Shown here: positions 791-47,200 of the stretch, in pieces
How the letters are laid out: every line of letters starts with the position of its first letter
How positions within the stretch are numbered: the stretch's first letter is position 1
Source of the DNA: Azolla caroliniana
Lineage: Eukaryota; Plantae; Polypodiophyta
Reading direction: 5' to 3'
Length of the DNA stretch: 64,000 nucleotides
Assembly (NCBI GenBank): GCA_043228905.1
Contig: JBHGNT010000009.1
Location: 9,424,001-9,488,000, forward strand
Notes under the pieces: model-generated
The model's input: the letters and a program-made list of their open reading frames with translations, nothing else
What the model was told of the DNA's origin: nothing
Databases searched by the model: none
Program-made: the position numbers and the translations under genes

Positions 791-1267
791 CTTCAAGCCT
801 GATTGCTCTTGACGGCGCCAAATTTATCACGTATATTGCCGTCTACAATGCCTCGGCCTAGAATTCCAACTTCAATCCGACTTGCTGGAGCATTGTGGTC
901 ACCCTCTCCTGGATCATTCGGTTGATCCGTTAAGCCACCCCATTCTGCATGGGTGTGTAAGGAACGGTCTTTTGACGCCGGATCCCTTTTTCGGACACGT
1001 ATTGTTTGAAGGCTCTGGAGGTGTACTCACCTCCGTTGTCGGATCAGAGTGTCTTCACTCTGTGTCCCGACCGGTTCTCCACTTCAGATATCCATCGAGT
1101 GCAGACCTCGAGCGCTTCATCTTTGGACTTGATGGAGTATGCCCAAACTTTTCGTGTACAGTCATTAACGAATGCGATGAAGTATCGGGAGCCTCCTAGT
1201 GATCGCTTTGGCATGGGCCCACATATGTCTGTGTGCACGAGCTCTAGGGGTTGTCGTACCGTCTCGT

Positions 1268-1949
1268 TGTCGTGAAGATTTTCGTCCGTAAGGGGAAAAC
1301 CGAGCGGAGCGAGCAAAACCGGGGTGTGCAACGTTGCACACGCACATGATGTATTTGTAAAATATTAATAAGAACAAATGTAAATTGTAAGAAATGCACC
1401 ACAAGATTCCTAAAGTATAAATGTGATGTACATAGGAGTACGAGATGAGTAATGGGCGTAGTAGTATGTGTGAGGAGTGGGAGTTAAGGCCCCATCAATC
1501 CCTCCTCCAAGAATCTAAGCAAATATCCCCCCATTGAATGAAGGGGATATTTAGTCCCTCCTTTTTGTAACGGCTTTTTCTCCTTATGCTATAAAAGGAG
1601 AGGAAGGGGCACCATTGAGAGGGTTGCCTATTTTGAGTAAGAAGAGGTATACCACTTAGGTCAAGAGTATCTATTCGGTTTAGGGTTTCTTAATTTCTTT
1701 CTTTACTTATCCTATTAGGGTTTACATTCTACTTATGTCTTGAGTCCGGCCCACGCGGCCGCGGTTGTAATCGCATTGAGGCTTTCATGCCATAATATAC
1801 GTAACTTCTTAAATCTTGTCTCTTTCTACTTTCTCCACCGTGTTAATCTCCTCCACTTTGCTCATGCCCGTCTTCCCATCTACTCCATAGTCCAAGACCC
1901 CCCTGGTCCCGCCACCTTATTCTACACGCACGCGCGAAGTAACGTGACA
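1268..1949. mobile_element. Solo LTR (682 bp) with 4-bp TSD TCGT
   Basis: Starts TGTCGTGAAGA, ends GTGACA. TCGT at 1264-1267 and 1950-1953. Removing it restores host frame HYETVRQPLELVHTD. Confidence 0.88.
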
Positions 1950-2491
1950 TCGTAGTGGAGAGAGTGTGGACTTCAAGTCTGTTTCCCATATCGACAATGC
2001 TCACAGAAGTCCGTCTTTGCCTGGAGTTTCACGATGTAGCCGACCGACATCAGCCGATCAAGTCCGGCTTGAGACATGTGGCCAAGTCAGCCATGCCATA
2101 AGTTTGGGTCGGTTTTCTTGGCTACGTTCACGACCCCTTCAGGGTTGATCACCATCAATGGGTATAGATTATTATACTTATGCCCACTACCGATTTTGAG
2201 GTTTCCTCGGATAATCACCCATGTCGACTTGTGTAAAATCGTTCGATACCCGTCTTCGGCTAACATACTGATGGAGACCAGACTCCTTTTTAGATCGGGT
2301 ACGTGTCGAACTCAATGAAGGGTTATTGTATTGTCATTTGGCAATCTGATGGGAACCTCCCCGGTTCCGGCTATCTTGCACTCCTGCCCGTTTCCCAGTC
2401 GGATTGTGCCGTTGGCATCGGCTGAATAGTTCGAGAACCATTCAACGTTGGAGGTCACGTGAAATGTGGCACCAGAGTCTAGTAGCCACGA

Positions 2492-3562
2492 TGTCGTGAA
2501 GATTTTCGACAATGGTGTGAAAATCGCATAAAACATACAAAATCGAGTATGATTAATATAAAACAATAATAGTGAAAATACTATTTAATATCTTGGTACA
2601 AAAAGATGGAGGTCTTCAAGAGCTTTCGAATGCACTTTACTACATCACAAACGGACATCTAAGTCTCAAGTTATGTGGGTAGGAAGTTTGCAAAGAAAAA
2701 GAGAAAGATAAAACTATGAGATATCCCACATAGACAGGACAAATAAGGATCCCACCTTATATAAGGCAGAGCAAAAGCTATTGTTTTTGTGTTTATGTGT
2801 GGAGCATAGAGAGTTCAAGCTGACTTGAACTAAGTTAATTGGATGAGTGGTGTGGCCTAGCTACTTGTAAAGGTTTTAGCCAACCAAAACCGGCAGCGGC
2901 GCCGGTGAGCCAGCGATAATCGGCGGCGGCGGCAGCAGTGAGCCGGTGACCGACAAGCGACTCAGGATGCGGACTCGACCGGACCAAACGGATGCAAAGT
3001 ATTTTGTGCATAAAAGAAAAAGACTTAAGCAAGACTCGAATTGAACACCTCCAAGATAAGAAGCAATAGGCTTACCATTAAGCCAAACCATTTCTTTAGG
3101 GATTATATTTTTATAATTATAGCTTTACATGTAAATTCTCATGTGTGAGAGCTTAGATGATGACATGGCAAGCATGCATTGTGTGCATTGCATGCATTTC
3201 ATGCATGTCTTCCACCCTCACATGCACCATATGCATCGGGGCATCTAGAAAAGAGTGGAGGAATCAAGCAAAAGGACATTTTTATCAAGCAAGCTTTGTA
3301 CTTTAAATAAAAATTAATATTAAGAAGAAAATTTGTTATCCTTTTGATGATATACCTTGTTCTTCAAATCTAAAGTCAAGAGTTCAATCTTAATCTCTCT
3401 CACAATCTAAAATCAAGCGTTCTATCTTATCTCAATCTCTCTCTCTTTCAATCTAACTTAAATCCTTTCTCGCTAAAGCTAGTAAAAACTTCGAGTCCTT
3501 CTAGTCCAGAATCTCAAAGGTTCCGCCTCACGATTCGCACGTAGTGACGGATCGTCACGACA
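2492..3562. mobile_element. Solo LTR (~1.07 kb), same terminal type; probable TSD ACGA, right boundary ambiguous by a few bp
   Basis: Starts TGTCGTGAAGATTTTCG like the LTR at 1268 and ends near TCACGACA. Host Copia frame (AHM..SWLLDSGA) resumes on both sides. Confidence 0.75.
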
Positions 3563-9299: not shown

Positions 9300-9335
<36 letters not shown>

Positions 9336-9658
9336 AAGAGGTTGTTGCCTCTGTTGTAACCGCCGCCTGTGGCGAGGATCGTGAGCACGAGGTCGTTGCC
9401 TCCGTGAACTCACTGTTGTACATTCTAACATAGTGATAGTTTGCAGCCTATGGGTTGCCGTGGTTTTTTCCCTTAGTTTGGGTTTTCCACGTAAACATCC
9501 TGCGTACTCGTCTCCTCTTCGTGTCGTTTGTCATTTCCCGTTTTCTGTGTATGATTCTAAGCTCGGTTGTGGCCGAGTGTTGCGTATAACAAGCGTTTAG
9601 TTCCCGTCACTCTGCTTGTTCAACCAATTCGGCCCATGTTGAGCTTGTCCGCTCAACA
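7176..9658 (-). mobile_element. Truncated Copia (5' LTR 8604-9658, Met PBS 8593-8603, gag-protease pseudogene), relative of the 20508 Copia
   Basis: Gag MDRRMASSLAIEKLDQSNYASW matches 20964 MDRGMASSLPTEKLDRTNYASW. LTR start tgttgagcggacaagctcaaca matches. PBS TGGTATCAAAG. Confidence 0.88.
8996..9609. mobile_element. Solo LTR family A, 5-bp TSD CTCTG, inserted in a Copia LTR
   Basis: TGTTGGGA...GTCA. CTCTG at 8991-8995 and 9610-9614. Confidence 0.92.
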
Positions 9659-23900: not shown

Positions 23901-24844
23901 CGGTACAAGGCTCGGCTAGTGGCAAAGGGCTACGCGCAAAAACACGGCATCGACTACGATGAGACGTTTGCGCCGGTCGCGAAAATGACGATCATCCGTG
24001 TTTTGCTCGCAGTAGCCGCGGCCAAGGGGTTGCACTTACATCAGATGGCTGTAAAGAATGCATTCCTGCAAGGTGACCTTGAGGAACAGGTGTACATGGT
24101 ACAGCCCCCTGGATTTCACTCCGGAACGAACTCCTCGACAGTCTGCCGATTGAAGAAGTCCCTTTACGGACTGAAGCAAGCCCCGCGTGCCTGGAACGCG
24201 AAGATCACGCAACAACTGCGTCGGTTGGGCTTCGTCACGTCAAAATCGGACTCTTCCCTGTTCATCCGGAAAGGTCGACTCGGACCGGTTAGTATTTTAC
24301 TATATGTTGATGACTTGGTCATCACCGACGCCGACCTAGGTGAAATCGACTGCGTGAAGCTCCAGCTTGCGGCATCGTTCGACGTGAAGGATCTGGGGGA
24401 CCTTCATTACTTCCTCGGGATCGAAGTGATCCATACCCCCGAAGGCATATTGATCAGCCAACGTCATTACGTGCTGAGTATGCTCTTCAAACTCAGGATG
24501 GCCGACTGTAAGTCCATCTCGACTCCTCTGGACAGAACCGTGAAGCTTCGTCCCGATACAGGAAAGGTATGCGACCCGACGAGGTTCCGACAAATTGTCG
24601 AAAGCCTCATATACTTGACCATCACCCGACCCGACCTCAGTTATCCGGTCGGGGTGATCAGTCAGTTCATGGCGCGACCTACCGAGGAGCACCTTCAGTG
24701 TGCGCAACGCGTACTTCGGTACATAAGTGGCACTAAGGACCGAGGACTGCTATATCGGATCGGTGCAGCCGTGCAGCTAGTCGGCTACACCGATGCTGAT
24801 TGGGCTGGCAACGCCGCCGATCGCCGATCCACCTCTGGATACGC
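20964..24844 (+). pseudogene. Copia gag-PR-INT-RT polyprotein with in-frame stops
   Basis: CCHC knuckle, WYVDSGA, HSDVWGP...QNGVAERKNR, YKARLVAKGY, LYVDD. One frame broken by TAG/TGA at 21294, 22431, ~22464 and 22938. Confidence 0.95.
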
Positions 24845-25253
24845 TGTCGAGATAATTACGCAAGTGCGTATGAAAATGAGGCGGGACCGCGGGGGTCACG
24901 AACCAAAGAGCAAGCAAGGGAGGAGAAAGAGAGAGAACCTGCTACGCAGGACCGGGGATACGCAGGGACACGGCCCTTCAGCACGGAGAACGTGAACAGA
25001 CACTGACACAGACAGATGCGAATGACTAAATAAGTGTATTAACAAAAATGGCTAACACGACTACAACCCTCGATGGGGCACAGGTTGTTTACAACCGAAC
25101 AGGCCGGCGAACAGATGCCGATGCCTGTTCGCTTCGAAACACAAACGGGGTGGCAGGTCGGAGGTGCTGCCGGAAGCACTCGGGCGTTCCTCGAAACAGC
25201 GCGAGCCTCCTCAGAACCCTGCACAGAAGCTATGGAGCTTGAGAAGGAAGGAA

Positions 25254-25295
<42 letters not shown>

Positions 25296-25597
25296 GTCCA
25301 GAAACGGTCCGGCAGCACTTCGTCCTCTCCGCGCGAGATCCCCCCGCACTTCTATTCTTCCTCTTCCCTTTTATAGCCCGTCAAGAGGCCGTTTGGCATT
25401 AACTGCATACCCCCGAATCTACCCACCTAGGATCCTCGTATGTACTTCTTGGCGCGCGTGTGTGCAGAGCCGTTTCCCACGCCTTGTTCCTCCGATTCCT
25501 CTTGTGGGCGGTTTTCTTCACGACATCCGCCCCCACCTAACCGCGCATCCACCGGTATGCGCCAAATTAAGTTGGCACGGAGAAAACCGGCCCGCCT

Positions 25598-28500
25598 TTA
25601 CTCTTCGCCTGCCGGCCCTTTCTCGGCCTCGGATCGGTCGTCGCTGCTGTCCAGGAGAATCGGGTCGGGTTCGTCGTCGTGCCGCTTCTTGAAAGCTTTG
25701 ATCCTCTTCCCGGCCACGGGTATCGCTATTCTCGTACCGTCGAGTTCCGCCAGATGATACGTCCCGTTGTCGTTGGCGCTCTGTACCGTGTACGGCCCGA
25801 ACCATCTCTGTGCGAACTTCCGCGTTGCTCGGTGCTGGTTGTCGAGGCTGCTGTCGTAGACGAGCACCCAGTCACCTTCGTCGATTTTCTTCGGTCGTAG
25901 CCGGTGCGTTCGGTCGAACCGGGCTTTGTTCTTTGTCCTCGCCACCCGGAGCTTCTCCGTAGCCAGTGCCACGTCCTCCGGTCTCCGCTCGAGCTGTCGT
26001 ATGCGCGCGGCCAACAACTCCTCCCGGCTCATCTCGTCCCTCCAGTCGACCGTTGCCCACGAGGAGATCGTCCGTTCAATCGGCATGATCGGCTTCTGGC
26101 CGAACATGAGCTCTGTCGGCATGTACCCGGTTACCGAACTGTGCGTGGTCTGGTCCGCCCACAAAGCATAAGGTAGGAGCCGCGGCCAGTCACCGATTCG
26201 GCCTCCGCATGCCCGAACCAACGCTTTGACGATCGGTCCGTGTCCGCGCTCCACCTTCCCATTCGCCTCCGGATTGTACGCAGTGGTGAGCGAGAGCTTG
26301 ACCCCCAGCCGGTCGAATAGCTCCGCGGCTTCTTCGGCGTCCAACTCCCCTCGGTCAGCCACGATCTTCCCGACGCACCCGTACCGGCATATCACGTCCT
26401 CGATTAGGAACCGACACACGGCCGCGGTCGTCTTGTTCTGAAGGGCTCGGCCTTCCACCTGGTTCGTCAGGTCTTCCCGTGCTAGGACCAGATACCGCAT
26501 CTGTCCTACCCCCATCGGCATCGTCACCAGATCTACCATCCATTTGAAGTGGATAGTCGGAGGGTACGTAGGGCGAAGCCCGTCCCGGTGTCGGACTATC
26601 GAGTGCATCTGACAACTCTCGCAAGTTGACACGAACCGATGCACGTCCCGGTACAATCCCGGCCACCAGTACTTCCCCTTCAGCTTCTCAAAAGTCGCCC
26701 ACGTTCCACGGTGCCCAGCCCAAGGGCTGTCGTGGTGGGCCGCCAGTAGCTCCTCCTGTTCTTCCTTCATCGCCACCACCCGGAGCGGGACGCCGTTCCT
26801 CTTCTTCGGGTGCTTCCACAAATTCCCATCTCGGAGAAAGAATCGATATGCTTTCTTCCGGATCCGGTTGGCCTCGTCCTTCGTCCATGACGCATCGGGC
26901 ATCATTGTCTTCAAAAACCCGCCGATCTGCAGCCACTCCCCGTCGTACTTGCTCGCGTCGAACTCGTTAAGCGCCGGAGTGCTCATCCCGTCGGTCGTTA
27001 TGTATGCCGCCTCGAAGAAATCCACGCCGACTTCTTCGTCTTCCGAAACCATGCCGCCCTCGTCGTCGAACCTCGCCCTCGAAAGCATGTCGGCCATGGC
27101 GTTGTCTTTCCCGGAAATGTGTCGTATTTCCGGGTCCAGGGACTTGATGTACGCTATCCACCTGAGCATCGCCAGGTCCGGGGTCGCGCATCCGGAAACC
27201 ATACCGAGAATCGGCAGGCAATCCGTCTCGATGATCACTTCTGTCCCTATCAGGTAATCTTTGTCGGCCTTAACCGCCGAAACAATACCCCAGAGTTCGC
27301 GTTTAACCTGGGCGTATCCTCGCTGTCGTTCACTGAGGACTTTCGCGCCGAATCGGATCGGAAACCGATTGCCGTCCTCGTCTTCCTGGTTCACGACCCA
27401 TCCGATCCCGGTCGGACTGGTATCCACCGTTATGAATACCGGGGTGCCCCTCCCGTATACCGCCTTCCGGAGTGCCGGTGCCGCTGCAAGGGCCTCTTTC
27501 AGCTTCCGGACCGATTCCGCGTGCTCGTCCAGCCATTCGAACCTTCGCCCCTTTTTCAGCAACCCGTACAGTGGCTCCGCGACGTGCGCGTAATGCGGGA
27601 TCCATATGTGGTAGAACGCGCATGCCCCCAGAAATCTCCGTACTTCCGTGACCGAGCTGCAGTCGGGCTTCATCGCGGAGATGGCTTCTACCTTTGCCGG
27701 AGACGGTTTCCGGCCATATGGTCCGCACAGGTGTCCGACCACCATGATTTCTGACTGCCCGAAGGCCGACTTCTCCCCGGAGAAGGTGAGTCTCGCATCC
27801 TCTAGCCTTTGCAGCACCTTCTCGCAGTCGTCGATGTGCGTCGCCACGAATCGCCGGCATCCGTCCGGCCCGATCGTCTCGTCCCTTTCTTCCACCGGGC
27901 ATCCCTTGATCGGAATGTCGTCCAGAAACGGCATGGTGATGTCCGGGATACAGTCCCTCAGAACCTTGTTCATCGCATTCACCATGTGGGCCACCGAGTT
28001 GGTCCCTCCTTGCGGCAGTGTACACATCCGAACTAGGCCGAGGGGAGTTCGCATCGTCGTAATGTCTCTGCTCTCCACGGCTAGCTGGAACTGGTCGTAC
28101 CCCGAGTATAGATCCCCGACCGAGTAAATTGACCTTCCGGCGAAGGCCTCCGCGAACTCGTCTATGGTCGGTCCGATCCCTGCGTTCCGAATGGTCACTC
28201 GATTGACCGGCTGCAGGTCCTGGATGAAGCGCAACGAACCGTTTTTCTTCGGTACGGTAAACCATCGATTCGAATATGGGGCGCTCGACGGCTCGAGAAT
28301 TCCCATATCAACTTTCTGCCTCAGCAGCTCCATCAACTTCGGGATGTGAGCTCTCGGAACCGGGATTGGCTTGAGATTCCATGGTACATGCGGTACCGTG
28401 AATATCACCATTGGCTCCACGATCGTCGGGTCAACGCACCCGATTTCCTCCGGCGAGAATGCGAAGGCTTTCCCGTGCCTTCCGAGCATTCTCCGAAACC

Positions 28501-29080
28501 GGTCTTCCTCCGCCGGCAGTAGGAACCCGCCCCCACCTATTTTGAGCTCTCGGAGCGTCTCGTCGGTGAAGGTGTGCCCTATGCAGGCCGGATCTCGTAG
28601 ACTAGGGTCCGATGCAACCCCTTTGATTCTCGACGCGCTGTCCTCCGGTAAGGGTGCCGCGACTGGCCTTACCTTCCGGTCTACAGTCTTGTACTTGGTG
28701 CTTACGCGGGCCGTCCGAACTGACTCGAGTCCTCGACCGAAGTCCATGATGACTCCGTACATCTCCTCGGAACACACCGGTATCGTCCGGTCTTCGTTAA
28801 GGCCTTCTTCGACCACCTTTCCCAGCGTCCCCAAGGTGTCGTCGAATGAGACCGCCTCCACGGCTCCGCTGATTTCCTCGTCAGGGCCGAGAACTCCGCA
28901 CGCTCGAAGTCTCCCCTCCGCCTTTGTCTTCTCTCGGCCGCCGATGCCGACTATCGTACACGCTCCGCTGTCGGAGAAGCAAAATACCCTACCTGTCGTA
29001 CACGGTTTTATCGTACAAATGTGGGGTTTTCCCGGAGCATCCGGACTGTCGCGGCCCCACGCCTTGGCAGTCCTCTCTAA
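25598..29080 (-). CDS. Gypsy pol (RT-RNase H-integrase), open frame entered by predicted -1 frameshift
   Basis: LPQGGTNS...FLDD, DTS...ETD, HHCC, D-D-E, WFGPY. Frame is open upstream of the called start to the slippery site, with no ATG in between. Confidence 0.9.
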   Translation of the reverse strand, partial: LERTAKAWGRDSPDAPGKPHICTIKPCTTGRVFCFSDSGACTIVGIGGREKTKAEGRLRACGVLGPDEEISGAVEAVSFDDTLGTLGKVVEEGLNEDRTIPVCSEEMYGVIMDFGRGLESVRTARVSTKYKTVDRKVRPVAAPLPEDSASRIKGVASDPSLRDPACIGHTFTDETLRELKIGGGGFLLPAEEDRFRRMLGRHGKAFAFSPEEIGCVDPTIVEPMVIFTVPHVPWNLKPIPVPRAHIPKLMELLRQKVDMGILEPSSAPYSNRWFTVPKKNGSLRFIQDLQPVNRVTIRNAGIGPTIDEFAEAFAGRSIYSVGDLYSGYDQFQLAVESRDITTMRTPLGLVRMCTLPQGGTNSVAHMVNAMNKVLRDCIPDITMPFLDDIPIKGCPVEERDETIGPDGCRRFVATHIDDCEKVLQRLEDARLTFSGEKSAFGQSEIMVVGHLCGPYGRKPSPAKVEAISAMKPDCSSVTEVRRFLGACAFYHIWIPHYAHVAEPLYGLLKKGRRFEWLDEHAESVRKLKEALAAAPALRKAVYGRGTPVFITVDTSPTGIGWVVNQEDEDGNRFPIRFGAKVLSERQRGYAQVKRELWGIVSAVKADKDYLIGTEVIIETDCLPILGMVSGCATPDLAMLRWIAYIKSLDPEIRHISGKDNAMADMLSRARFDDEGGMVSEDEEVGVDFFEAAYITTDGMSTPALNEFDASKYDGEWLQIGGFLKTMMPDASWTKDEANRIRKKAYRFFLRDGNLWKHPKKRNGVPLRVVAMKEEQEELLAAHHDSPWAGHRGTWATFEKLKGKYWWPGLYRDVHRFVSTCESCQMHSIVRHRDGLRPTYPPTIHFKWMVDLVTMPMGVGQMRYLVLAREDLTNQVEGRALQNKTTAAVCRFLIEDVICRYGCVGKIVADRGELDAEEAAELFDRLGVKLSLTTAYNPEANGKVERGHGPIVKALVRACGGRIGDWPRLLPYALWADQTTHSSVTGYMPTELMFGQKPIMPIERTISSWATVDWRDEMSREELLAARIRQLERRPEDVALATEKLRVARTKNKARFDRTHRLRPKKIDEGDWVLVYDSSLDNQHRATRKFAQRWFGPYTVQSANDNGTYHLAELDGTRIAIPVAGKRIKAFKKRHDDEPDPILLDSSDDRSEAEKGPAGEE

Positions 29081-31203
29081 AAATCCTCTCGGTTATCGGA
29101 ACCGAGGGAGTCGCGGTTACGCTCGTGGTTCGGCCTGACCTTCAAAAACTGGACCGAATGGCGCCCGTCCTAGCTCTTGACCCGCGCATAGGCCGAACCG
29201 TTGTCCAGCACCTTGGTCTCCATTCGCGCCGCCGTGATGTACGGCTCTCCCAGTATGACCGGATGCGAAGACGTCTCCTGCACGAAGAAGTGCTGGTCAA
29301 TCTCGACATCGCCGATCTTGACTCGCACATTCGGACAGGCCCCGTGCAGTTCCTCGGTGGCGCGCGTTGCTGCCCTTATTTTCCACCCGTGCTTGGTGTT
29401 GATCGGCCATTTGCCCTTCTTATAGAAGTCCATGGACATCAAATTGATCTCCGATCCGTGGTCTACTAAAGCTACCACCGGTTCCTGGACATCGCCGATC
29501 TTCACCGGGGTTTCCGTGGTCGCTCGGGCCCAATGTGGTCTCGAATAGTGGCTTTCCGCCCACTCGTCTCCCAGCGCCATGTCGTCTAGGTGCGTCGTCC
29601 GCACTTCCACCGGTCTTTCCGGTTCTGTCTCCGTCGACAGCCTCTTCCGTTTCACCAAGTCCACGATGGAGTCGTGGAACTCCTTCTTGGCGATTCCCAG
29701 CACCTCTCGTAACGACAGCTCCACCTTGCTATCGAGGATCCGTTCCTCCAGGACCTTTCGTAAGTCCGTGGTTCTTTCTATCTCCGTCCCCAGACGGTAC
29801 CCGCCCTTCTGGGGTTTATCTCGCGTACCGGCCCCGCCGGCTTCGTCCCGTCGTGGCCCGGACCGGGTCTCGTATCGTTGTGAGGGCCCGGTCGTCCCGG
29901 GTCTCCCCACCCACTTCTCTTCTACCAGGGCCTCGTAGTTCCTGCAAGCGGCTTCCACGAAGCCCGTCTTTTCCTCGACCGGGTCGCTCCACCCGGTCAT
30001 CTCCCGTACCCGTTTCTCCGCACGGTCCGATTCCTCCCTTTTAAGCCCTGCACCGGCAAGGCCTTCCAGCATCGTCGGCCAGAATCCGGCTTTGCTTTCC
30101 CCCCGGGCCTCGCCGCCCCCGACTCGAATGCCGGCTGACGCCGAGTAGTGGACGGTTTCCGCGTGTCGGGCCGCCGCCTCTTCCATCAACCTTTTCATAC
30201 CACCCTTTCCGTCGTTTCGGCTCAGGGCCCTTCGGGTGTCGCTGGCATGCACCCGTCCTTCCCACAGGTACACCACCCTGTTCCTCAGCGCCTCCGCGAA
30301 GTCGCCGCAGTCCTTCCGAATGTGGCCGACTTCATCGCACCACATGCACCTGTTTCCTGCCGCCGGCCGTCGGTCACGAGCCGGTTCGCCTCCTTCCCTT
30401 CGGGCCTGCGCGATTTGGAGGTCCTTTATCGCCTTCGTTAATTCCTCCAGCGCCGCTCCTCCGGTTGAGCCTGTGACTACGCCGGTCGAAGCCGAACGGG
30501 TGTCCAACCACTCTCCGGTCCCTTCCTTTCGCACCCGTGGCGCTGGTTCGAACTTCCTTGCTGCGACCGAGCCCGACCCGGTCGCACCGTCATCCGCCCA
30601 TTCTCGCCGTTTGTCGAAACGGCCACAGACCTTCCTGACAGCCGCCCAGTCGGTAGTGAGCCCGTCTTCGGTTTCTAGCAGGGCGCCCACGTGACTCCGA
30701 TCCCTCTCGTCAACCGATTTGACGAACAGCAGGACCCGGCTTGTATCCAGGATCATCCTGTCAAGCGCCGAAAGGCGTGCGAAGTTCTCCTCGAACTCCC
30801 GGAGGAGCGCCGACGCGTTTCTTCCCTTTCCCGGGGACTCCACCCATTCCATGAACCTTCGCTTCGAAAGCCGGAGCGCGTCGTCCAGCCCGTATTTCTC
30901 TAGGAGCCGACCTTCGAACTCCTCCCAGGTACGGCTCTCCGTCCGTACCTCGAGCACCTCCGCATGGATGCTCGGCATCGCTACTCGGGGAAATCCGGCC
31001 AGACGCCTTTCTTCCGGAATGTCCCGCATCAGCATCTCTGCACCGTAGGACGCCAAATACTTCGTGGCATCCTTCCCATCGAACCGGCCGATCGTGCCGA
31101 CGACCGCCTCAATAGCTCTGTCGAGGGCACCGGTGCTCTCGCGCGCGTTTACAATCCGATCCACGGCCGAAGCCATGGCCTCTGCGAGATCCGACCCTCT
31201 CAT
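29077..31203 (-). pseudogene. Gag-protease ORF with one premature TAG (29170-29172)
   Basis: MRGSDLAEAM..., CMWCDEVGHIRKDC, LVDHGSE. The paralogue at 40.67 kb has CAG at this codon and continues to EDF*. Confidence 0.88.
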
Positions 31204-31225
31204 TTCCTGCTCTTCTGCCGCCTCT

Positions 31226-31243
31226 TTCACGTCGGGTTCACCA
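31226..31243 (-). promoter_or_regulatory. Primer-binding site complementary to plant tRNA-Trp
   Basis: TGGTGAACCCGACGTGAA, 4 nt from the LTR. Same 18-mer at 38601-38618. Confidence 0.85.
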
Positions 31244-31656
31244 AAGATGTCGAGATAATTACGCAAGTGCGTATGAAAATGAGGCGGGACCGCGGGGGTC
31301 ACGAACCAAAGAGCAAGCAAGGGAGGAGAAAGAGAGAGAACCTGCTACGCAGGACCGGGGATACGCAGGGACACGGCCCTTCAGCACGGAGAACGTGAAC
31401 AGACACTGACACAGACAGATGCGAATGACTAAATAAGTGTATTAACAAAAATGGCTAACACGACTACAACCCTCGATGGGGCACAGGTTGTTTACAACCG
31501 AACAGGCCGGCGAACAGATGCCGATGCCTGTTCGCTTCGAAACACAAACGGGGTGGCAGGTCGGAGGTGCTGCCGGAAGCACTCGGGCGTTCCTCGAAAC
31601 AGCGCGAGCCTCCTCAGAACCCTGCACAGAAGCTATGGAGCTTGAGAAGGAAGGAA

Positions 31657-31698
<42 letters not shown>

Positions 31699-31928
31699 GT
31701 CCAGAAACGGTCCGGCAGCACTTCGTCCTCTCCGCGCGAGATCCCCCCGCACTTCTATTCTTCCTCTTCCCTTTTATAGCCCGTCAAGAGGCCGTTTGGC
31801 ATTAACTGCATACCCCCGAATCTACCCACCTAGGATCCTCGTATGTACTTCTTGGCGCGCGTGTGTGCAGAGCCGTTTCCCACGCCTTGTTCCTCCGATT
31901 CCTCTTGTGGGCGGTTTTCTTCACGACA

Positions 31929-36879: not shown

Positions 36880-38640
36880 AAAGTGTTGCCTCTTAGGAAA
36901 CACGGGCCGTGGTCAGTCCTTCGACCTAGACCCCAAGGTGGGTGTGGAACAACGAACAAAGCTTAATCATACTACGTAAGGAGAGAACCTCTGTGACTTC
37001 GTTGTGTGTAAGGGGAGACGGCTACAACCAACTCCTTCTCACAGGTTGCGCTTACGTACTACTACGATTACGTATCCGAGACACGGACACTGAATTAGCC
37101 GTAGCTATACACAGAAACTCAGAGAAGATAGTATTCTATTATCAGGCGTTCTTTTTACAATTCCCAAAATTTACACACACCTCCTTACGAGGTTTTCTAC
37201 CCTTTATATATGCAGGGTCTAATTAGCTGTTCACGCGTACCCGCGTGAACCGTTACATACGTTACGCTTTATATAGTTTCTTATTCCTACGCTTTTGGCC
37301 GTCGGTTACTATTCCGGCGGACAACAAAGAGACCCATTCTTTTTCTTAACGAAGAAGATAGGAGCACCGGAAAGGGATCTAGAATGTCGAATGAATCCGT
37401 TTGCCAGATTCTTGTCGATATATTCCCGCAAAGTCTCTAGCTCTACAGGGGAGAGATTATAAATTGGGCCCCATGGAGGTTCTTTCCCTGGTTGTAAGTC
37501 AATAGGGCAGTTGTATGGCCGATGCTCCGGCAATGTATTGGCCTTCACCTTATTAAGAACTCTTTGTATTTCTCTAGTAGTTTAATGTCCGCTTCATGTA
37601 AGGTGAATGATGGAGTTGCTACTATTGCGAATATGAACATGTCCTCATTCCCCCCTTCCTCACATAACTGACGTAGAGAGATGGTCGATAACTTATGGGA
37701 TCTAGTATCAAATGTCGGAGATTTGAGGGATGCGAGCCTTGTTCTTGTTTCTTAGATTTCCTCAATTGTTCTTTTCATCCAATCAATCTTCGGGTTATGG
37801 AGTTCAAACCAAGGGAGACCTATAAGTATTGGGTGTTCCGGACTGTGAACAATGTTTAAAGATATTATGCTTGCCAAATCGCCAAGAACTATACGAATTG
37901 GCTTGAACTCTTCAACTATATCACCTGATGCTATGGGACGGCCATCAATGACTCCTACAGTGTCGTGAAGAAAACCGTCCACGAGCGGAATCCGTGCACC
38001 GGAGCGTAGAAACCGACTCTTCATGCACGTGCGCCTTAAGTTGTACATAGGAGATCCTAGGTAGATTCGGTAGGTAGGGAGTAAAGGGGAAACGGCTCCT
38101 TCCTTGCCTATAAAAGGAGGGAGACGAGGAGGGTAGAGGGATCGCGGAGAGTCGAGGACGAAGTGCTGTCGGTTTGCGTGCGAAGGCTTCTCTCTCTCTC
38201 TCTTTCTGGTTGCAAACGCCATAGCTTCCTTCGGTGCAGGTTTCGGGAGGCTCGCGCTGCTCTGAGGAATGCCCGAGTGCTTCCGGCAGCACCTCCAACC
38301 TACTCCTTCCTCTCTGTGCGTCTACGAGCAGGTATCGGCATCTGTTCGCCGGCCTGTTCGGTTGTAACCGGCTTCGTGTTTTGTTGTCTTCGTGTTCTTG
38401 TTGTTTGTCTTGTCAATACATACATACATTCGTGTCTTTCTGCGTCGCTGTCCCACTTGCGTCTTTGCGTCGAAGGGCCGTGTCCCTGTGGATCTACGCT
38501 CGCACGTAAACGGATTCTTCCCCTCCTCTCTTGCTCTTTGGTACAGGACCCCCGAGGTTCCGCCTCGTTCCACGCATTCGCGAGGAATACCTCGACATCT
38601 TGGTGAACCCGACGTGAAGGAGGCGGCAGAAGAGCAGAAG

Positions 38641-40767
38641 ATGAGGGGGTCGGATCTTGCAGAGGCCATGGCTTCGGCCGTGGATCGGATATTGAGCACA
38701 CGCGAGGGCACCGGCGCCCTCGACAGAGCCATTGAGGCGGTTGTCGGTACGATCGGCCGTTTCAGCGGAAAGGATGCTACGAAGTATTTGGCGTCCTACG
38801 GGGCGAAAATGCTGATGCGGGACATTCTGGAAGAGAGGCGTCTTGCCGGGTTCCCTCGAGTGGCGATGCCGAGCATCCATGCGGAGGTGCTCAAGGTACG
38901 GGCGGAGAGCCGTACCTGGGAGGAGTTCGAAGGCTGACTCCTAGAGAAATATGGGCTGGACGACGCGCTCCGGCTTTCGAAACGGGACTTCATGGAATGG
39001 GTGGAGTCCCCCGGCAAAGGAAGAAACGCGTCGGCACTCCTCCGGGAGTTCGAAGAACGCTTTGCGCGCCTTTTGGCGCTTCACCGAACCATTCTGGATA
39101 CGAGCCGGGTCCTGCTGTTCGTCAAGTCGGTGGACGAGCGGGACCGGGATCAAGTCGGCTCCTTGCTGGAAACCGAAGACGGGCTGACGACCGACTGGGC
39201 TACGGTTAAGAGAGTCTGTGGCCGTTTCGATAAACGGCGAGAATGGGCTGACAACGGGGCGGCCGGTGCGGGCTCTGTCACAGCAAGGAGGCTTGAACCG
39301 GTGCCGCAAGTGCGAAGGGAAGAAACCTGGGAATGGCTCGAAACCGGTCCGGCTTCGACCAGCATGGTCAATGGCTCGTCCGGAGGAGCAGCGCTGGAGG
39401 AGTTGACGCGGGCGATAAAGGATCTCCAGATCGCCCAGACTCGAAGGGAAGGCGGCGAACCGGCTCGTGACCGACGGCCGGCAGCGGGGAACAGGTGCAT
39501 GTGGTGCGACGAGGTCGGCCACATTCAGAAGGACTGCGGCGATTTCGCAGAGGCGTTGAGGAATCGGGTGGTGTACCTGTGGGAAGGTCGGGTGCACGCC
39601 GGCGACACCAGGAGGGCCCTGAACCAAAACGACGGGTGAGGAGGAATGAAGAGACTGATGGAAGAGGCAGCGGCCCGACACGTGGAGGCCATCCACTACT
39701 CAGCGTCGGCCGGCATTCGGGTCGGGGGCAGCGAGGCCCGAAAGGAGGGCAAAGACGGATTCTGGTCAGCAATGCTGGAAGGTCTTGCCGGCGCACGGCT
39801 AAGGAAAGATGAAACGGACCGCGCTGAGAGACGGGTCCGGGAAATAACCGAGTGGAGCGATCCGGTCGAGGAGAAGACGGGCTATGTAGAAGCCGCCTGC
39901 CGGAACTACGAGGCTCTGGCTGAAGACAAACGGGTGGGGAAAACCGGAGCGGCTGGGCCCTCACAGCGGTACGAGACCCGATTCGGGCAACGACGGAACG
40001 ATGCCGGTGGGTCCAGCCCGCAAGATAACCCCAGGAAGGGCGGATACCGACTGGGGACGGAAATAGAAAGGACTACAGACCTACGAAAGGTACTAGAAGA
40101 ACGGATCCTCGACAACAAAGTGGAGTTGTCATTGCGAGAGGTGCTAGGGATCGCCAAGAAGGAGTTCCACGACTCCATTGTGGACCTGGTGAAACGGAAG
40201 AGGCTGTCGACGGAGACGGAACCGGAAAGACCGGTGGAGGTGAGGACAACGCACATCGACGACATGGCGATGGAAGACGAGTGGGCGGAGAGCCACTATT
40301 CGAGGCCACACTAGGCCCGAGCGACCACGGAGACCCCGGTAAAGATCGGAGATGTTCAGGAACCGGTGGTGGCATTGGTGGACCACGGTTCGGAAATAAA
40401 CCTGATGTCCATGGACTTCTATAAGAAGGGGAAGTGGTCGATCAACACCAAGCACGGGTGGAAGATACGGGCGGCGGCGCGCGCCACCGAGGAACTGCAT
40501 GGGGCCTGCCCGAACGTGCTAGTCAAGATCGGCGACGTCGAGGTTGACCAGCACTTCTTCGTACAGGAGACGTCCTCGCACCCGGTCATATTAGGGGAAC
40601 CATACATCACGGCGGCGCGAATGGAGACCAAGGTGCTGGACAACGGTTCGGCCTACGTGAGGGTCAAAAGCCAGGACGGGCGCCATTCGGTCCAATTTCT
40701 GACAGTGCGACCGAACCACGAGCGAAACCGTGAATCCCTCAGTGGCGAGAACCAGGAGGATTTTTAG
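38641..40767 (+). pseudogene. Gag-protease with three in-frame stops
   Basis: Stops ending at 38937, 39639 and 40314. Otherwise colinear with 29077-31203. Confidence 0.9.
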
Positions 40768-43700
40768 AGAGGGCTGCCAAGGCGTGGGGCCGAGATAGTC
40801 CGGACACTCGGGAAAGTCCCCACGACTGTACGATAGGTAGGGGATTTTGCTTCTCCGACAATGGAGGGAGTATGATAGTCGGCATCGTCGGCCGAGAAAA
40901 GACAAGGGCGGAAGTGCGACTTCGAGCGTGCGGAGTTCTCGGCCCGGACGAGGAAATCAGCGGAGCCATGGAGGCGGTCTCCTTCGACGACACCTTGGGA
41001 ATGCTGAGGAAGGTAGCCGGAGAAGACCTTAATGAAGACCGGACGATACCGGTATGTTCCGAAGAGATGTACGAAGTCATCGCGAACTTCAGTCGGGGGC
41101 TCGGGTCGGATCGAACGGCCCGAGTTAGCACGAGGTACAAGACTGTGCACCGGAAGGTAAGGCCAGTCGCGGCACCCTTGCCAGAGGGCAGCGAGTCCCG
41201 AATCAGAGGGGTGGCGTCGGACACCAGTTTACGAGATCCGGCCTGCATAGGACACACCTTCACCGACGGAACGCTCCGGGAGCTCAAAATCGGTGGGGGC
41301 GGGTTCCTACTGCCAGCGGAGGAAGACCGGTTTCGGAGAATGCTCGGAAGGCACGGGAAAGCCTTCGCATTCTCACCAGAAGAGATCGGGTGCGTAGACC
41401 CGACGATCGTGGAGCCGATGGTGATATTCACGGTAAGGCATGTACCGTGGAATCTCAAGCCGATTCCAGTACCGAGAGCTCACATCCCGAAGTTGATGGA
41501 GCTATTGAGGCAGAAAGTCGATATGGGTATTCTCGAACCGTCGAGCGCGCCATACTCGAACCGATGGTTTACCGTACCAAAGAAAAACGGAACATTGCGC
41601 TTCATTCAGGACCTGCAGCCGGTCAACATAGTGACCATCCGGAACGCAGGAATCGGACCGACCATAGACGAGTTCGCGGAGGCCTTCGCCGGAAGGTCGA
41701 TTTACTCGGTCGGTGATCTGTACTCGAGGTACGACCAGTTCCAGCTAGCCGTGGAGAGCAGAGACATTACGACGATGCGAACTCCCCTCGGCCTAGTGCG
41801 AATGTGTACCCTGCCACAAGGAGGGACCAACTCGGTGGCCCACATGGTGAATGCAATGAACAAAGTACTGAGGGATTGCATCCCGGACATCACCATGCCG
41901 TTTCTAGATGACATCCCTATCAAGGGGTGCCCGGTGGAAGGGAAGGACGAGACACTCGGGCCGGACGGATGCCGGCGATTCGTAGCAACACACATCGACG
42001 ACTGCGAGAAGGTGCTACAAAGGCTAGAGGATGCGAGGCTCACCTTCTCCGGGGAGAAATCGGCCTTCGGGCAATCAGAAATCCTGGTGGTCGGGCACCT
42101 GTGTGGACCATATGGCCGGAAGCCGTCTCCGGCAAAGGTAGAAGCCATCTCCGCGATGAAGACCGATTGTAGCTCGGTTACGGAAGTTCGGAGGTTCCTA
42201 GGGGCATGCGCGTTCTACCACATATGGATCCCGCATTACGCCCACGTTGCGGAGCCGCTATACGGGTTGCTGAAGAAAGGGCGAAAATTCGAGTGGCGAG
42301 ACGAGCACACGGAGTCGGTCCGGAAGCTGAAGGAAGCTCTTGCGGCAGCACCGGCGCTCCGGAAGGCTGTCTACGAGAAGGGTACCCCGGTATACATAAC
42401 AGTGGATACGAGTCCGACCGGGATCGGATGGGTCGTCAACCAAGAGGACAAGAACGGCATTCGGTTCCCGATCCGATTCGGCACGAAGGTTCTCAGTGAA
42501 CGACAGCGAGGGTACGCCCAGGTTAAACGCGAACTCTGGGGTATCGTTTCGGCAGTAAAGGCCGACAAAGACTACCTGATCGGGACAGAAGTGGTTATCG
42601 AGACGGATTGCCTGCCGATTCTCGACATGGTTTCCGGATGCGCGACACCGGACCTGGCAATGCTCCGGTGGATAGCGTACATCAAGTCCCTGGACCCGGA
42701 AATACGGCACATTTCCGGAAAGGACAACGCCATGGCCGACATGCTTTCGAGGCCGAGGTTTGATGACGAGGGCGGCATGGTTTCGGAGGACGAAGAAGTC
42801 GGCGTGGACTTCTTCGAGGCGGCGTACGTGACGACCGATGGGGCGAGCACTCCGGCACTTAACGGCTTCGACGAGAGCAAGTACGACGGCGAGTGGCTAC
42901 AGATCGGTGGATTTTGGAGGACAATGACGTCGGATGCGTCATGGACGAAGGACGAGGCCAACTGGATCCGGAAGAAAGCATACCGATTCTTTCTCCGGGA
43001 TGGATACTTATGGAAGCACCCGAAGAAGAGGAACGGCGTCCCGCTCCGGGTGGTGGCGATGAAGGAAGAACAGGAGGAGCTGTTGACGGCCTACCACGAC
43101 AGCCCTTGGGCTGGACACCGTGGAACGTGGGCCACGTTCGAGAAGATAAAGGGGAAGTACTGGTGGCCGGGACTGTATCGGGACGTGCATCGGTTCGTGA
43201 AAACTTGCGAGAGCTGTAAGATGCACTCTGTAGTCCAACATCGGGACGAGCTTCACCCTACGTACCCTCCGACCATCCACTTCAAATGGATGATAGACCT
43301 GGTGACGATGCCGATGGGAGTAGGACAGATGCGGTATCTAGTCCTGGCTCGGGAAGACCTGACGAACCAAGTAGAAGGCCGAGCCCTTCAGAACAAAACG
43401 ACCGCAGCCGTATGTCGGTTCCTAATCGAGGACGTGATATGCCGGTACGGGTGCGTCGGGAAGATCGTGGCTGATCGCGGGGAGTTGGACGCCGAAGAAG
43501 CTGAAGAGCTATTCGACCGGCTAGGAGTCAAGCTCTCGCTTACCACTGCGTACAATCCGGAGGCGAATGGAAAGGTGGAGCGCGGACACGGACCGATTGT
43601 CAAGGCGTTAGTTCGGGCATGCGGAGGTCAAGTCGGGAACTGGCCGCGGCTATTGCCTTACGCGTTGTGGGCTGACCGGACTACGCACAGTTCGGCAACC

Positions 43701-44231
43701 GGATTCATGCCGGCAGAGCTCATGTTTCGGCAGAAGCCGATCATGTCGATCGAACGTACGATCTCCTCATGGGCAACCGTGGATTGGAGAGACGAGATGA
43801 GCCGGGAGGAACTGCTGGCGGCGCGTATACGACAGCTCGAGCGAAGACCGAAGGACGTGGAGCGGGCTGCGGAAAAGCTTCGGGAAGCAAGGATGAGGAA
43901 CAAAGCCCGGTTCGACCGAACACACCGGCTCCGACCGAAGAAGATCGAGGAAGGCGATTGGGTGCTAGTCTACGACAGCAGCCTCGACAACCAGCACCGA
44001 GCGACGCGGAAGTTCGCAAGAAGGTGGTTCGGGCCTTACGTGGTACAAAGCGCCAACGACAATGGGACGTACCATCTGGCGGAACTCGACGGCACGAGAG
44101 TGGCGATACCGGTAGCTGGGAAACGGATCAAAGCGTTCAAGAAGCGTCACGACGACGAGCCGGATCCGGTTAACCTGGACCGGGACGACGAACGATCCGA
44201 AACCGAGGAAGAACCGACGGGCGGGGAATGA
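40764..44231 (+). CDS. Gypsy pol (RT-RNase H-integrase), intact frame
   Basis: 1119-aa ORF from 40872, open upstream to the slippery site at 40758-40764. Confidence 0.9.
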   Translation, partial: LERAAKAWGRDSPDTRESPHDCTIGRGFCFSDNGGSMIVGIVGREKTRAEVRLRACGVLGPDEEISGAMEAVSFDDTLGMLRKVAGEDLNEDRTIPVCSEEMYEVIANFSRGLGSDRTARVSTRYKTVHRKVRPVAAPLPEGSESRIRGVASDTSLRDPACIGHTFTDGTLRELKIGGGGFLLPAEEDRFRRMLGRHGKAFAFSPEEIGCVDPTIVEPMVIFTVRHVPWNLKPIPVPRAHIPKLMELLRQKVDMGILEPSSAPYSNRWFTVPKKNGTLRFIQDLQPVNIVTIRNAGIGPTIDEFAEAFAGRSIYSVGDLYSRYDQFQLAVESRDITTMRTPLGLVRMCTLPQGGTNSVAHMVNAMNKVLRDCIPDITMPFLDDIPIKGCPVEGKDETLGPDGCRRFVATHIDDCEKVLQRLEDARLTFSGEKSAFGQSEILVVGHLCGPYGRKPSPAKVEAISAMKTDCSSVTEVRRFLGACAFYHIWIPHYAHVAEPLYGLLKKGRKFEWRDEHTESVRKLKEALAAAPALRKAVYEKGTPVYITVDTSPTGIGWVVNQEDKNGIRFPIRFGTKVLSERQRGYAQVKRELWGIVSAVKADKDYLIGTEVVIETDCLPILDMVSGCATPDLAMLRWIAYIKSLDPEIRHISGKDNAMADMLSRPRFDDEGGMVSEDEEVGVDFFEAAYVTTDGASTPALNGFDESKYDGEWLQIGGFWRTMTSDASWTKDEANWIRKKAYRFFLRDGYLWKHPKKRNGVPLRVVAMKEEQEELLTAYHDSPWAGHRGTWATFEKIKGKYWWPGLYRDVHRFVKTCESCKMHSVVQHRDELHPTYPPTIHFKWMIDLVTMPMGVGQMRYLVLAREDLTNQVEGRALQNKTTAAVCRFLIEDVICRYGCVGKIVADRGELDAEEAEELFDRLGVKLSLTTAYNPEANGKVERGHGPIVKALVRACGGQVGNWPRLLPYALWADRTTHSSATGFMPAELMFRQKPIMSIERTISSWATVDWRDEMSREELLAARIRQLERRPKDVERAAEKLREARMRNKARFDRTHRLRPKKIEEGDWVLVYDSSLDNQHRATRKFARRWFGPYVVQSANDNGTYHLAELDGTRVAIPVAGKRIKAFKKRHDDEPDPVNLDRDDERSETEEEPTGGE

Positions 44232-47200
44232 AGGCTGGACCGGTTTTCTCCGTCCCAACACAATTTGGCGCATGCCGGTGGATGCGCGGTTAGGTGGGGG
44301 CGGATGTCGTGAAGAAAACCGTCCACGAGCGGAATCCGTGCACCGGAGCGTAGAAACCGACTCTTCATGCACGTTCGCCTTAAGTTGTACATAGGAGATC
44401 CTAGGTAGATTCGGTAGGTAGGGAGTAAAGGGGAAACGGCTCCTTCCTTGCCTATAAAAGGAGGGAGACGAGGAGGGTAGAGGGATCGCGGAGAGTCGAG
44501 GACGAAGTGTTGTCGGTTTGCGTGCGAAGGCTTCTCTCTCTCTCTCTTTCTGGTTGCAAACGCCATAGCTTCCTTCGGTGCAGGCTTCGGGAGGCTCGCG
44601 CTACTCTGAGGAATGCCCGAGTGCTTCCGACAGCACCTCCAACCTACTCCTTCCTCTCTGTGCGTTTACGAGCAGGTATCGACATCTGTTCGCCGGCCTG
44701 TTCGGTTGTAACCGACTTCGTGTTTTGTTGTCTTCGTGTTCTTGTTGTTTGTCTTGTCAATACATACATACATTCGTGTCTTTCTGCGTCGTTGTCCCAC
44801 TTGCGTCTTTGCGTCGAAGGGTCGTGTCCCTGTGGATCTACGCTCGCACGTAAAGGGATTCTTCCCCTCCTCTCTTGCTCTTTGGTACAGGACCCCCGAG
44901 GTTCCGCCTCGTTCCACGCATCCGCGAGGAATACCTCGACAACGGTTATTGGGTTCAGGAGCTTATTCAAGAGGATGTTTTGTGACAATGCAAATTCACG
45001 ATCCATGAAACAAGAGTTGGGTCCAGAATCTAGGAGGGCGGACGCTAGGACTCGATGACATGTAGATGTGGTAAGCTCAACTTGTGTAGAGATTGATGAA
45101 ATGGAACCACGACTAGGAACTAACTCTACATAGCTAGTATGGTCCAACCAAATGGCTCCTTTTTTGGCCGGACTTACTTGTTTAACACATCCTCTAATTG
45201 GCTCAAGACATCGAATCTATTCTCATGGCATGGACTATTAGGCTTAGTTATGTTATTAGAAGTAACAATGGAACTTGAAGTAGGGTTGTCATGTGCACTT
45301 ACTTGGTATACTTGACGTCTAGGTTTATGTGGAAAATTCACGGCTATATGTCCTGGACCACCACAATATAGGCATAGGCGGTGCGCTCGACGTCGTTGCT
45401 TCTCAGCATCTGATAAAGGCCCTCAACATTGTGTTGAATCTATTTCCATTGGAGTTGGGTCATCCCTTGTAATGGTTCTGGAAACTTGTGAAGGAGTTGC
45501 GACGACAAAAGCGTAAGTCTGTTCTAGTTGGTGGCGTAACATTTGTTGGCGTTCAAAACATCGCTCAAGTAGGCTATTATCACATCACACGGCTCAACTA
45601 ATGGCCTCAATAAGAGACTTCAGATCTTCATGGAAAGTAAGAAGAAGATCTTTGACATCATTACACAAACCTTGATGGAATTGATCCATTAAGGCCGCCT
45701 CATCCCAAGGGATATCGCATGCCAAGAGACGGAAATCAGCTACGTAAGCTGACGCGAGACGATCTCCTTGTCAGAGCCTTCTAATCTTGTTTATCGTTGT
45801 CCTAGTGTTGTCGGTGTCTCCGAAATTAGCTTGAAACTCCTTAACAAATGCCTTAAAATCCCCCACCAATGGTGATTTCTTCTCGAGGAGTGGTGCAAAC
45901 CATGCTAATGTCGTACCACATAACAAGGTTCCCAGTAATCCCACACGAGCAGCATCATTTGGGTACCTATTGGGATGTAGCTGAATAACCAAATGAAATT
46001 GATTCAAAAAGCCTCGAAATAAAGACCTCGTACCATCAAACTTAGCGTGGAGGCTAATCTTTGGTTCTCTAGGGGAGTTTTGAGCCCCCGACGTTTGTTC
46101 TCGTAATGATAATATAGATCCCTATTTATAAGTCCTGACTACTATGTAACACACTCTAGTGGAGGCTAATCTTGTGAACACACTCTAGGAATTTTCAAGT
46201 GTGGGAACACCCGACTACTATGTAACATTACTAATGTGTCAAAAGACTTAACTTCTATGACACATAGTTAGTAGGTAGTTAAAGTTCCCTCCTCTTTCCC
46301 AAGGGGTCGTTGTAGTAAGAGAATATAGAGAGAAGGTGACTATATAAGCACCTTCTCCCCCTCTTTTGTAGTTGTTGGTTATTCCTTTTTCTTGTGAATA
46401 CAGTTTCTTGTTTTCTGTCTATCCTGTGTCGACTCTCTCTCTCTCTCATATTTGACCTCCAAAGACGATAATATAATCTCTCTCTCTCCCCCCCCCCCCC
46501 TCTCTCTCTCACACACACACACACATCCCTATTCTGTTGCACATCACACTCAGTTTTTTACAATTGTTGTGTCAACAAGATTCAGAATGTATCATGGTGA
46601 TCAACAGCATTCTCCGTAAGGGAACCAATGCGAGTCATACCTTGGATTGTTGCACTTTGAAGGGTCACTACTAAGTCATGAAGGGTCGTCTTCCTCTACA
46701 CTAGCTAGTTGAGGGATTAGAGGACATCATTCCAAGGGTAAAGACCATGTTCTACATCAACATATATCAAGCATGGAGGATTCAAGAAACACAACAATAA
46801 AAGGAAGAAATGTGAATGGATAAAGATAAGGGATTCTTTCTAAAGGTCAAAAGTAGAAAATTGTGCAAGTCATGGATAAGAAGATTATGATAGAGAAAAA
46901 TGCTCACAATTTCTTCATATGAACTCCAAATTGAGCAAAGAAAGTTTTGTTGAAACATGGTCAAGGAGAGCTTTTTATGAATATCTTCTATGCAATAGTG
47001 GCGGAGAAAGCAAGTTGGCATCGAAAGAGGATAGCTAGGTCTCTATTTAGCCTACTTTATAAAATCGTGGATTCAATAATATCCATTACAAAACAAAGAT
47101 AGACTATAAAAAATGCAAGTTCAAAAAACATATAAATTTATATGGGAGAGAAAGTATTGAGGGGAATTATTAGAAAAAGAAAAATTGAGATTTAGAAGAA

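What the first reader, a model, noticed from the sequence alone, without database searches (positions are those of the whole stretch)
1264..44945. A Gypsy lineage with 4-bp TSDs that appears to integrate at CpG dinucleotides
Seen: four independent insertions whose LTRs begin TGTCGTGAAGA have target duplications TCGT (1268 solo), ACGA (2492 solo, right edge ambiguous), ACGC (24845 element) and ACGG/ACAG (37961 element; the mismatch is what CpG deamination produces). All are N-CG-N. For three of them the 4-bp length is confirmed by restoring the host reading frame. The other LTR insertions with readable TSDs have 5-bp TSDs without CG (CTCTG, AAGAG, GTTTC, GTAAG, AGCAC). Established: plant LTR retrotransposons usually make 5-bp TSDs with weak sequence preference. 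Inference: this integrase, which has no chromodomain, centres on CpG, possibly methyl-CpG. That would steer it into already silenced transposons, and all four landed in coding regions of other retroelements. The sample is only four.
Basis: partly seen in the sequence, partly recalled or inferred. Interest (0 to 1): 0.85.

Follow-up and report, generated by a model that had tools for sequence, protein, structure and literature searches.

The report
Bryophyte Phygy retrotransposons insert at CpG
Four retrotransposon insertions in this plant DNA each sit in a 4-base duplication centred on CG, a real preference that is already published for the moss Phygy lineage to which they very likely belong; whether methylation of the CG matters is untested.

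Summary
Two solo LTRs and two full elements have 4-bp target duplications (TCGT/TCGT, ACGA/ACAT, ACGC/ACGC, ACAG/ACGG). All four host reading frames fit 4 bp. Five other insertions have 5-bp duplications without CG. In 73 related metagenome loci, 15 of 17 further LTR–host junctions are N-CG-N, against 3.3% background CpG.

The elements are non-chromovirus Ty3/gypsy with a DUF4100 Gag, a primer site recalled as tRNA-Trp, and Physcomitrium and Riccia relatives. That fits Phygy, for which Neumann et al. 2019 (PMC6317226) list 186 elements, '4 bp (100%) (NCGN)'. Placement against the REXdb reference sequences could not be run.

The methyl-CpG and steering claims are not supported here. No methyl-reading domain was found, and 3 of the 5 non-CG insertions also hit retroelement coding DNA (p=0.44). 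The integrase most likely reads CG itself at the sharply bent centre of a 4-bp stagger, as Drosophila ZAM integrase binds CGCGCg. The integrase has a D-x34-E spacing with an acidic target-contact residue, which distant fungal-type relatives partly share. Methylation dependence is open and testable.

The parts
1268..1949 (+). Solo LTR of the lineage, inside the integrase region of a minus-strand Copia element
   Evidence: ends match LTR termini of related loci
1264..1267 (+). Left target duplication TCGT (right copy 1950-1953 TCGT)
2492..3562 (+). Solo LTR of another family of the lineage, at the start of the protease of the same Copia
2488..2491 (+). Left target duplication ACGA (right copy 3563-3566 ACAT; 2 differences; original ACGT inferred)
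24845..31928 (-). Full element e3, 7084 bp; 5' LTR 31248-31928, 3' LTR 24845-25525, identical; inserted in the RNase H region of a Copia
24841..24844 (+). Left target duplication ACGC (right copy 31929-31932 ACGC)
31226..31243 (-). Primer-binding site of e3 (starts TGG; match to plant tRNA-Trp recalled, not confirmed by a tool)
   Evidence: checks 42, 47, 52 found no tRNA
29170..31344 (-). ORF1 Gag-protease with DUF4100; ends at a premature stop late in the protease
25598..29092 (-). pol RT-RH-INT (P0001); integrase D913/E948 spaced by 34 residues; short acidic tail, no chromodomain
25526..25537 (-). Polypurine tract of e3
37961..44941 (+). Full element e4, 6981 bp; LTRs 37961-38597 and 44305-44941, 98.1% alike; inserted in the protease of a chromovirus
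37957..37960 (+). Left target duplication ACAG (right copy 44942-44945 ACGG; empty-site copies read ACGG)
38601..38618 (+). Primer-binding site of e4, same 18 bases as e3
40734..44231 (+). pol RT-RH-INT of e4 (P0003), 93% identical to e3 over 900 aa, no chromodomain
44293..44304 (+). Polypurine tract of e4

Best explanation
These are non-chromodomain Ty3/gypsy retrotransposons, very likely of the bryophyte Phygy lineage, that insert with a 4-bp duplication centred on CG, likely because the integrase itself reads the CG step whether or not it is methylated. Shown: the 4-bp length, the central CG, the domain order and the absence of a chromodomain. Published: the same N-CG-N, 4-bp target for 186 Physcomitrium Phygy elements. 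Inferred: a 4-bp stagger forces a sharp bend at the central step, which favours pyrimidine-purine steps in retroviral intasomes. Base-specific contacts then narrow the choice to CG; candidates are the conserved basic C-terminal motif AGKR[IV]K.F and the shortened acidic loop after the second catalytic Asp. Nesting in other retroelements follows from the region being mostly retroelements and holding most of the CpGs.
For: Junctions and frames. Empty site carries a single ACGG. 15 of 17 LTR-host junctions from 73 related loci are N-CG-N (10 of 11 LTR starts, 5 of 6 ends), with CG always 2nd-3rd base from the LTR, against 3.3% flank CpG, P about 1e-20. One miss (L041 CCTT) is CCGT in uninterrupted homologues; the other is CCAT, a deamination-type change. 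Pooled flanks at LTR edges read ACGT by majority in run X4 (16 contigs) and run X1 (13 contigs). No TA or TG centre was seen (CG 15, CT 1, CA 1), so flexibility alone does not explain it. Phygy row in the Neumann supplement: 186 elements, 4 bp (100%) (NCGN), tRNA-Trp 81%, no extra domain. All 18 Physcomitrium proteins tested hit only these two elements in the window, with 53-71% identity over the protease for the 10 measured. Riccia relatives reach 65% over RT-RH-INT. Central YR preference with 4-bp duplications: PMC4422553 abstract and passages. ZAM integrase binds CGCGCg directly: PMC2527525 abstract; that Drosophila has little CpG methylation is recalled.
Against: No direct comparison with REXdb Phygy references, because the supplementary fasta and per-element table were too large to read. 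The elements (7084 and 6981 bp) are shorter than the Physcomitrium Phygy range 7656-9968. The tRNA-Trp identity of the primer site is recalled; tool checks found no tRNA (0 of 31 loci; 0 matches). Methylation independence was not tested. Transposons here look methylated: LTR-pair transitions CG 11 of 316, CHG 15 of 228, CHH 7 of 716. The PFV residue aligned to the acidic position contacts bases outside the duplication, not its centre, so it is a weak candidate for the CG reader. Three looser motif matches (L039, L049, L061) had non-CG flanks and were not counted because they did not pass the 24-base terminus test.
Confidence: 0.75

Rival explanations
1. The integrase prefers or needs 5-methyl-CpG, which steers the element into silenced transposon DNA without a chromodomain.
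For: 4 of 4 window insertions lie in retroelement coding DNA. At least 8 of 17 outside flanks hit retroelement proteins, using window proteins only as queries. LTR pairs show excess transitions at CG and CHG. Phygy domains are enriched at predicted centromeres of a liverwort (PMC12885004 passage).
Against: No methyl-binding domain or chromodomain by Pfam; only a short acidic tail follows the SH3-like domain. 3 of 5 non-CG insertions are also in coding retroelement DNA (p=0.44). At least 58% of the window's other CpGs are in retroelement coding DNA, so 4 of 4 has p about 0.11. ZAM targets CG-rich sites by direct binding.
Confidence: 0.15
2. No base reading: the integrase only needs a flexible pyrimidine-purine step at the bent centre, and CG wins by shape.
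For: Retroviruses with 4-bp duplications enrich central YR steps (PMC4422553).
Against: Central step was CG in 15 of 17, with TA 0 and TG 0, although flanks are mostly AT-rich (GC 0.23-0.61). Neumann calls Phygy the one exception among plant lineages.
Confidence: 0.09
3. Chance pattern in a sample of four.
For: Only four sites; two have a changed duplication copy.
Against: About 6e-4 after motif correction; replicated in 15 of 17 outside junctions and in 186 published elements.
Confidence: 0.01

Closest known systems
Phygy lineage (REXdb non-chromovirus|Phygy; Neumann et al. 2019, PMC6317226)
   Same: 4-bp N-CG-N duplication; no chromodomain, aRH or extra ORF; primer site recalled as tRNA-Trp; coding region fills the internal part; Physcomitrium proteins match
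   Different: About 7.0 kb against 7.7-10.0 kb; separate branch from the Physcomitrium copies in a protease tree; several LTR families in one window
ZAM errantivirus of Drosophila (PMC2527525)
   Same: Ty3/gypsy integrase with a CG-containing target (CGCGCg) bound directly in vitro; works like this case
   Different: Animal, retrovirus-like element; longer target consensus; no homology test run here
Prototype foamy virus intasome (PDB 3oym and others; PMC4422553)
   Same: Best PDB match of the integrase (E 4e-23); 4-bp duplication with central YR step
   Different: Weak, degenerate preference; D-x35-E with Ala188, where this lineage has x34 and Glu or Asp
Fungal non-chromovirus Gypsy (Ylt1-like / SN_1006 clades, PMC2864245)
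   Same: Nearest named non-plant relative is from the fungus Smittium culicis (39%, with DUF4100) and shares D-x34-E
   Different: Assignment of those relatives to Ylt1 not tested; their target sites not examined
Selgy and TatI (REXdb)
   Same: Non-chromovirus lineages with 4-bp duplications; TatI also uses tRNA-Trp
   Different: TatI has aRH, absent here; Selgy uses tRNA-Ala, averages 5.0 kb, and no NCGN is listed for either

Membership tests
Phygy | Ty3/gypsy domain order Gag-PR-RT-RH-INT filling the internal region | tested here: met
Phygy | No chromodomain, no aRH, no extra ORF | tested here: met
   Pfam finds none in P0001-P0003 but finds Chromo in the window's chromovirus; pol stop lies about 70 bases from the 3' LTR
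Phygy | 4-bp target duplication | tested here: met
Phygy | N-CG-N target motif | tested here: met
   4 of 4 in the window in at least one copy; 15 of 17 in related loci
Phygy | Primer-binding site for tRNA-Trp | tested here: inconclusive
   Conserved TGG-starting site in both elements and 26 times in related loci; Trp identity recalled; no tRNA found
Phygy | Clusters with REXdb Phygy references in an RT-RH-INT tree (the primary definition) | tested here: inconclusive
   Reference fasta unreadable. Proxy: 18 of 18 Physcomitrium proteins hit only these elements; 53-71% protease identity, unrooted tree without outgroup; starred clade with Riccia proteins, far from the chromovirus
Phygy | Length 7656-9968 bp (descriptive; Neumann calls size insignificant for classification) | tested here: not met
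   7084 and 6981 bp
Tcn1 chromovirus | Chromodomain, 5-bp duplication, self-priming | tested here: not met
   25% identity to the window's chromovirus
TatI | Additional aRH domain | tested here: not met
   no such Pfam hit in P0001-P0003
Ylt1-like fungal Gypsy | Clusters with Ylt1 references | not tested
   no reference sequence in hand; only the Smittium hit
Methyl-CpG-directed integration | Preference for methylated over unmethylated CG | not testable with these tools
   no methylome or new insertions available

The most novel reading that the evidence does not exclude
The Phygy integrase reads 5-methyl-CpG directly, through its shortened D-x34-E core and basic C-terminal motif. It would so target silenced DNA without a chromodomain or tethering factor: a retroelement integrase that is itself a methylation reader.
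Probability: 0.13. Interest if true: 0.75.

Novelty: new member of a known kind. Interest (0 to 1): 0.2.

Why it matters
The preference is already in print, so the finding mainly extends it to further bryophyte families and supplies two young copies. Phygy is the one plant LTR lineage reported with a fixed target motif, and I found no paper on how its integrase picks CG (searches; open-access library only). An open pol frame (P0001) makes that question testable. If methylation were required, it would be a new route into heterochromatin; if not, it is a plant counterpart of ZAM-type sequence-specific integrases.

Tried and rejected
No whole genome was held, so the genome-wide logo could not be made; 73 metagenome loci and four sequencing runs stood in.

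Dropped before the 15 of 17 count: one search flagged 19 outside junctions. L050 (a repeat inside the LTR, 41 bases before the true end) and L051 (primer site cut by the contig end) were removed. Four looser motif hits were not counted: L037 (flank ACGC) and L039, L049, L061 (flanks ACAC, CCCA, CTCT); with them the count would be 16 of 21. L016 and L039 have both LTR edges but unlike flanks (collapsed copies or recombinants), so they give edge position, not duplication pairs.

Attempts to confirm the primer tRNA failed: 31 viral loci held no tRNA and the genome scan gave 0 matches. The first integrase motif script matched nothing because it assumed canonical spacing; it was redone. The Atlas search on a stored homologue gave only generic Gypsy clusters. 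Cluster look-ups gave no useful names. Earlier-findings searches returned nothing.

Rejected: D-x34-E as a Phygy-specific cause of CG choice, because distant fungal-type relatives share it. Rejected: nesting as evidence of steering. No structure prediction was run.
Full report
Observation. Solo LTR 1268-1949 is flanked by TCGT/TCGT and solo LTR 2492-3562 by ACGA/ACAT. The minus-strand element 24845-31928 has ACGC/ACGC with identical LTRs, and the element 37961-44941 has ACAG/ACGG with LTRs 98.1% alike. Flanks translated separately show Copia integrase, Copia protease, Copia RNase H and chromovirus protease frames that are in register only if 4 (or 1 or 7) bases are duplicated; the sequences fit 4. 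For the last site, uninterrupted host copies in run X5 carry one ACGG, so ACAG is the changed copy. The five 5-bp duplications without CG are confirmed. With window CpG at 5.55% the four sites have a chance of about 6e-4 after allowing for any dinucleotide.

Independent test. No genome was held. In 73 related metagenome loci I defined LTR termini from PPT- and PBS-adjacent sequence and collected host junctions. Of 19 flagged outside the window, two were dropped (L050, an internal LTR repeat; L051, a cut primer site). Of the 17 left, 15 are N-CG-N against 3.3% CpG in their flanks (P about 1e-20). CG is the second and third base from the LTR at both starts (10 of 11) and ends (5 of 6), which fits only a 4-bp duplication centred on CG. 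One miss is CCGT in uninterrupted homologues; the other is CCAT. Four looser motif hits were not counted (one CG, three not); with them the count is 16 of 21. Majority flanks printed by the read tool end in ACGT for 16 contigs of run X4 and 13 of run X1. These loci are short-read assemblies, probably of the same or related plants, so they test the family, not distant lineages.

What the elements are. Both full elements encode a DUF4100 Gag-protease and an RT-RH-INT pol with no chromodomain or aRH; Pfam does find a chromodomain in the window's chromovirus. The closest named relatives are from Riccia sorocarpa (up to 65% over about 900 aa) and Physcomitrium patens. All 18 Physcomitrium proteins tested hit only these two elements, with 53-71% protease identity in the 10 measured. 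An RT-RH tree puts them in a starred clade with Riccia proteins, far from the chromovirus. The window is therefore most likely bryophyte DNA (inference). The primer site is conserved in 26 places in related loci and matches my recall of plant tRNA-Trp; tool checks found no tRNA to confirm it.

Comparison with print. Neumann et al. 2019 (PMC6317226; passages, supplementary file 5 whole) state that Phygy elements prefer NCGN, the one exception among plant lineages. They list 186 elements, 4 bp (100%) (NCGN), tRNA-Trp 81%, 7656-9968 bp, no extra domain. Jedlicka et al. 2019 (PMC6911290, passages) report 4-bp duplications as commonest in Phygy, a GC-rich centre for 4-bp duplications, and Phygy nested in Tcn1 in Physcomitrium. 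The elements here meet every Phygy feature I could test except length (7084 and 6981 bp), which the authors call insignificant for classification. The primary definition, tree placement with REXdb references, could not be run because the reference fasta and per-element table were unreadable; those files bear on membership. TatI and Tcn1 fail on aRH and chromodomain.

How it likely works. The integrase's best solved relative is the foamy virus enzyme. With a 4-bp stagger the target is sharply bent and the central step unstacked, which favours pyrimidine-purine steps (PMC4422553, abstract and passages). Here the centre was CG in 15 of 17 and never TA or TG, so base-specific reading is inferred on top of bending. 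ZAM integrase binds its CGCGCg target directly (PMC2527525, abstract), in a fly whose lack of appreciable CpG methylation I recall. The integrase core has 34 residues between the second Asp and the Glu in 113 of 113 relatives spanning it (112 with the Asp intact; 122 examined). It has Glu or Asp at the position of PFV Ala188, against 35 residues in two other Gypsy integrases of the window. The same spacing occurs in distant relatives including one from the fungus Smittium, and Ala188 contacts bases outside the duplication, so this is a lineage mark and only a weak candidate for the CG reader. A basic C-terminal motif is found in 99 of 122.

Methylation. Transposons here look methylated: transitions between LTR pairs are 11 of 316 at CG, 15 of 228 at CHG and 7 of 716 at CHH. 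So many targets were probably methylated, but that does not show a requirement. All four sites are in retroelement coding DNA, but so are 3 of the 5 non-CG insertions (p=0.44) and at least 58% of the window's other CpGs. At least 8 of 17 outside flanks hit retroelement proteins. Phygy is reported enriched at predicted centromeres of a liverwort (PMC12885004, passages). PMC7466625 (passages) and PMC2864245 (passages) gave no target-site data for this lineage. Searches (listings only, open-access library) showed no study of Phygy target methylation.

Verdict. The feature is real and well supported, and it is a known property of a known lineage; these are new members. Interest 0.2. The methyl-CpG reading is not excluded (about 0.13-0.15) and would be of high interest.

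Noticed in passing
window 25598-29092 (P0001 D913-E948) and relatives: Integrase has D-x34-E, not x35, with an acidic residue at the PFV Ala188 / HIV Ser119 position; shared with distant fungal-type relatives.
   Followed up: partly
window 29170-29172: The element with identical LTRs already has a premature stop late in the ORF1 protease; e4 has in-frame stops in gag.
   Followed up: partly
window 11861-46109: Five-level nest: a chromovirus holds a Gypsy (14551-37326), which holds a solo LTR and a Copia (20508-33293), which holds e3; e4 sits in the same chromovirus.
   Followed up: partly
window 48285-53952: Young chromovirus with identical LTRs and a T-rich stretch instead of a tRNA primer site, as described for Tcn1; lineage not tested.
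   Followed up: no
LTR pairs at 37961, 14551, 20508: Transitions are densest at CHG (6.6%), then CG (3.5%), then CHH (1.0%); window CpG is not depleted (observed/expected about 1.0).
   Followed up: partly
L024:565, L041:1488, L071:368: Three of 17 outside junctions are insertions into pol of the same lineage.
   Followed up: partly
L016, L039: Both LTR edges present but with unlike N-CG-N flanks: collapsed assembly or recombination between insertions.
   Followed up: no
window 36-303, 6391-7076, 19205-19474, 54673-54981, 57413-58241: Several tandem arrays (40, 137-139, 48, 54, 95-97, about 380 bp units); the 95-97 bp array is made of degraded chromovirus RT pieces.
   Followed up: no
P0341: Nearest named non-plant relative is a DUF4100-bearing polyprotein of the fungus Smittium culicis (39%), hinting at a fungal-type sister group.
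   Followed up: partly
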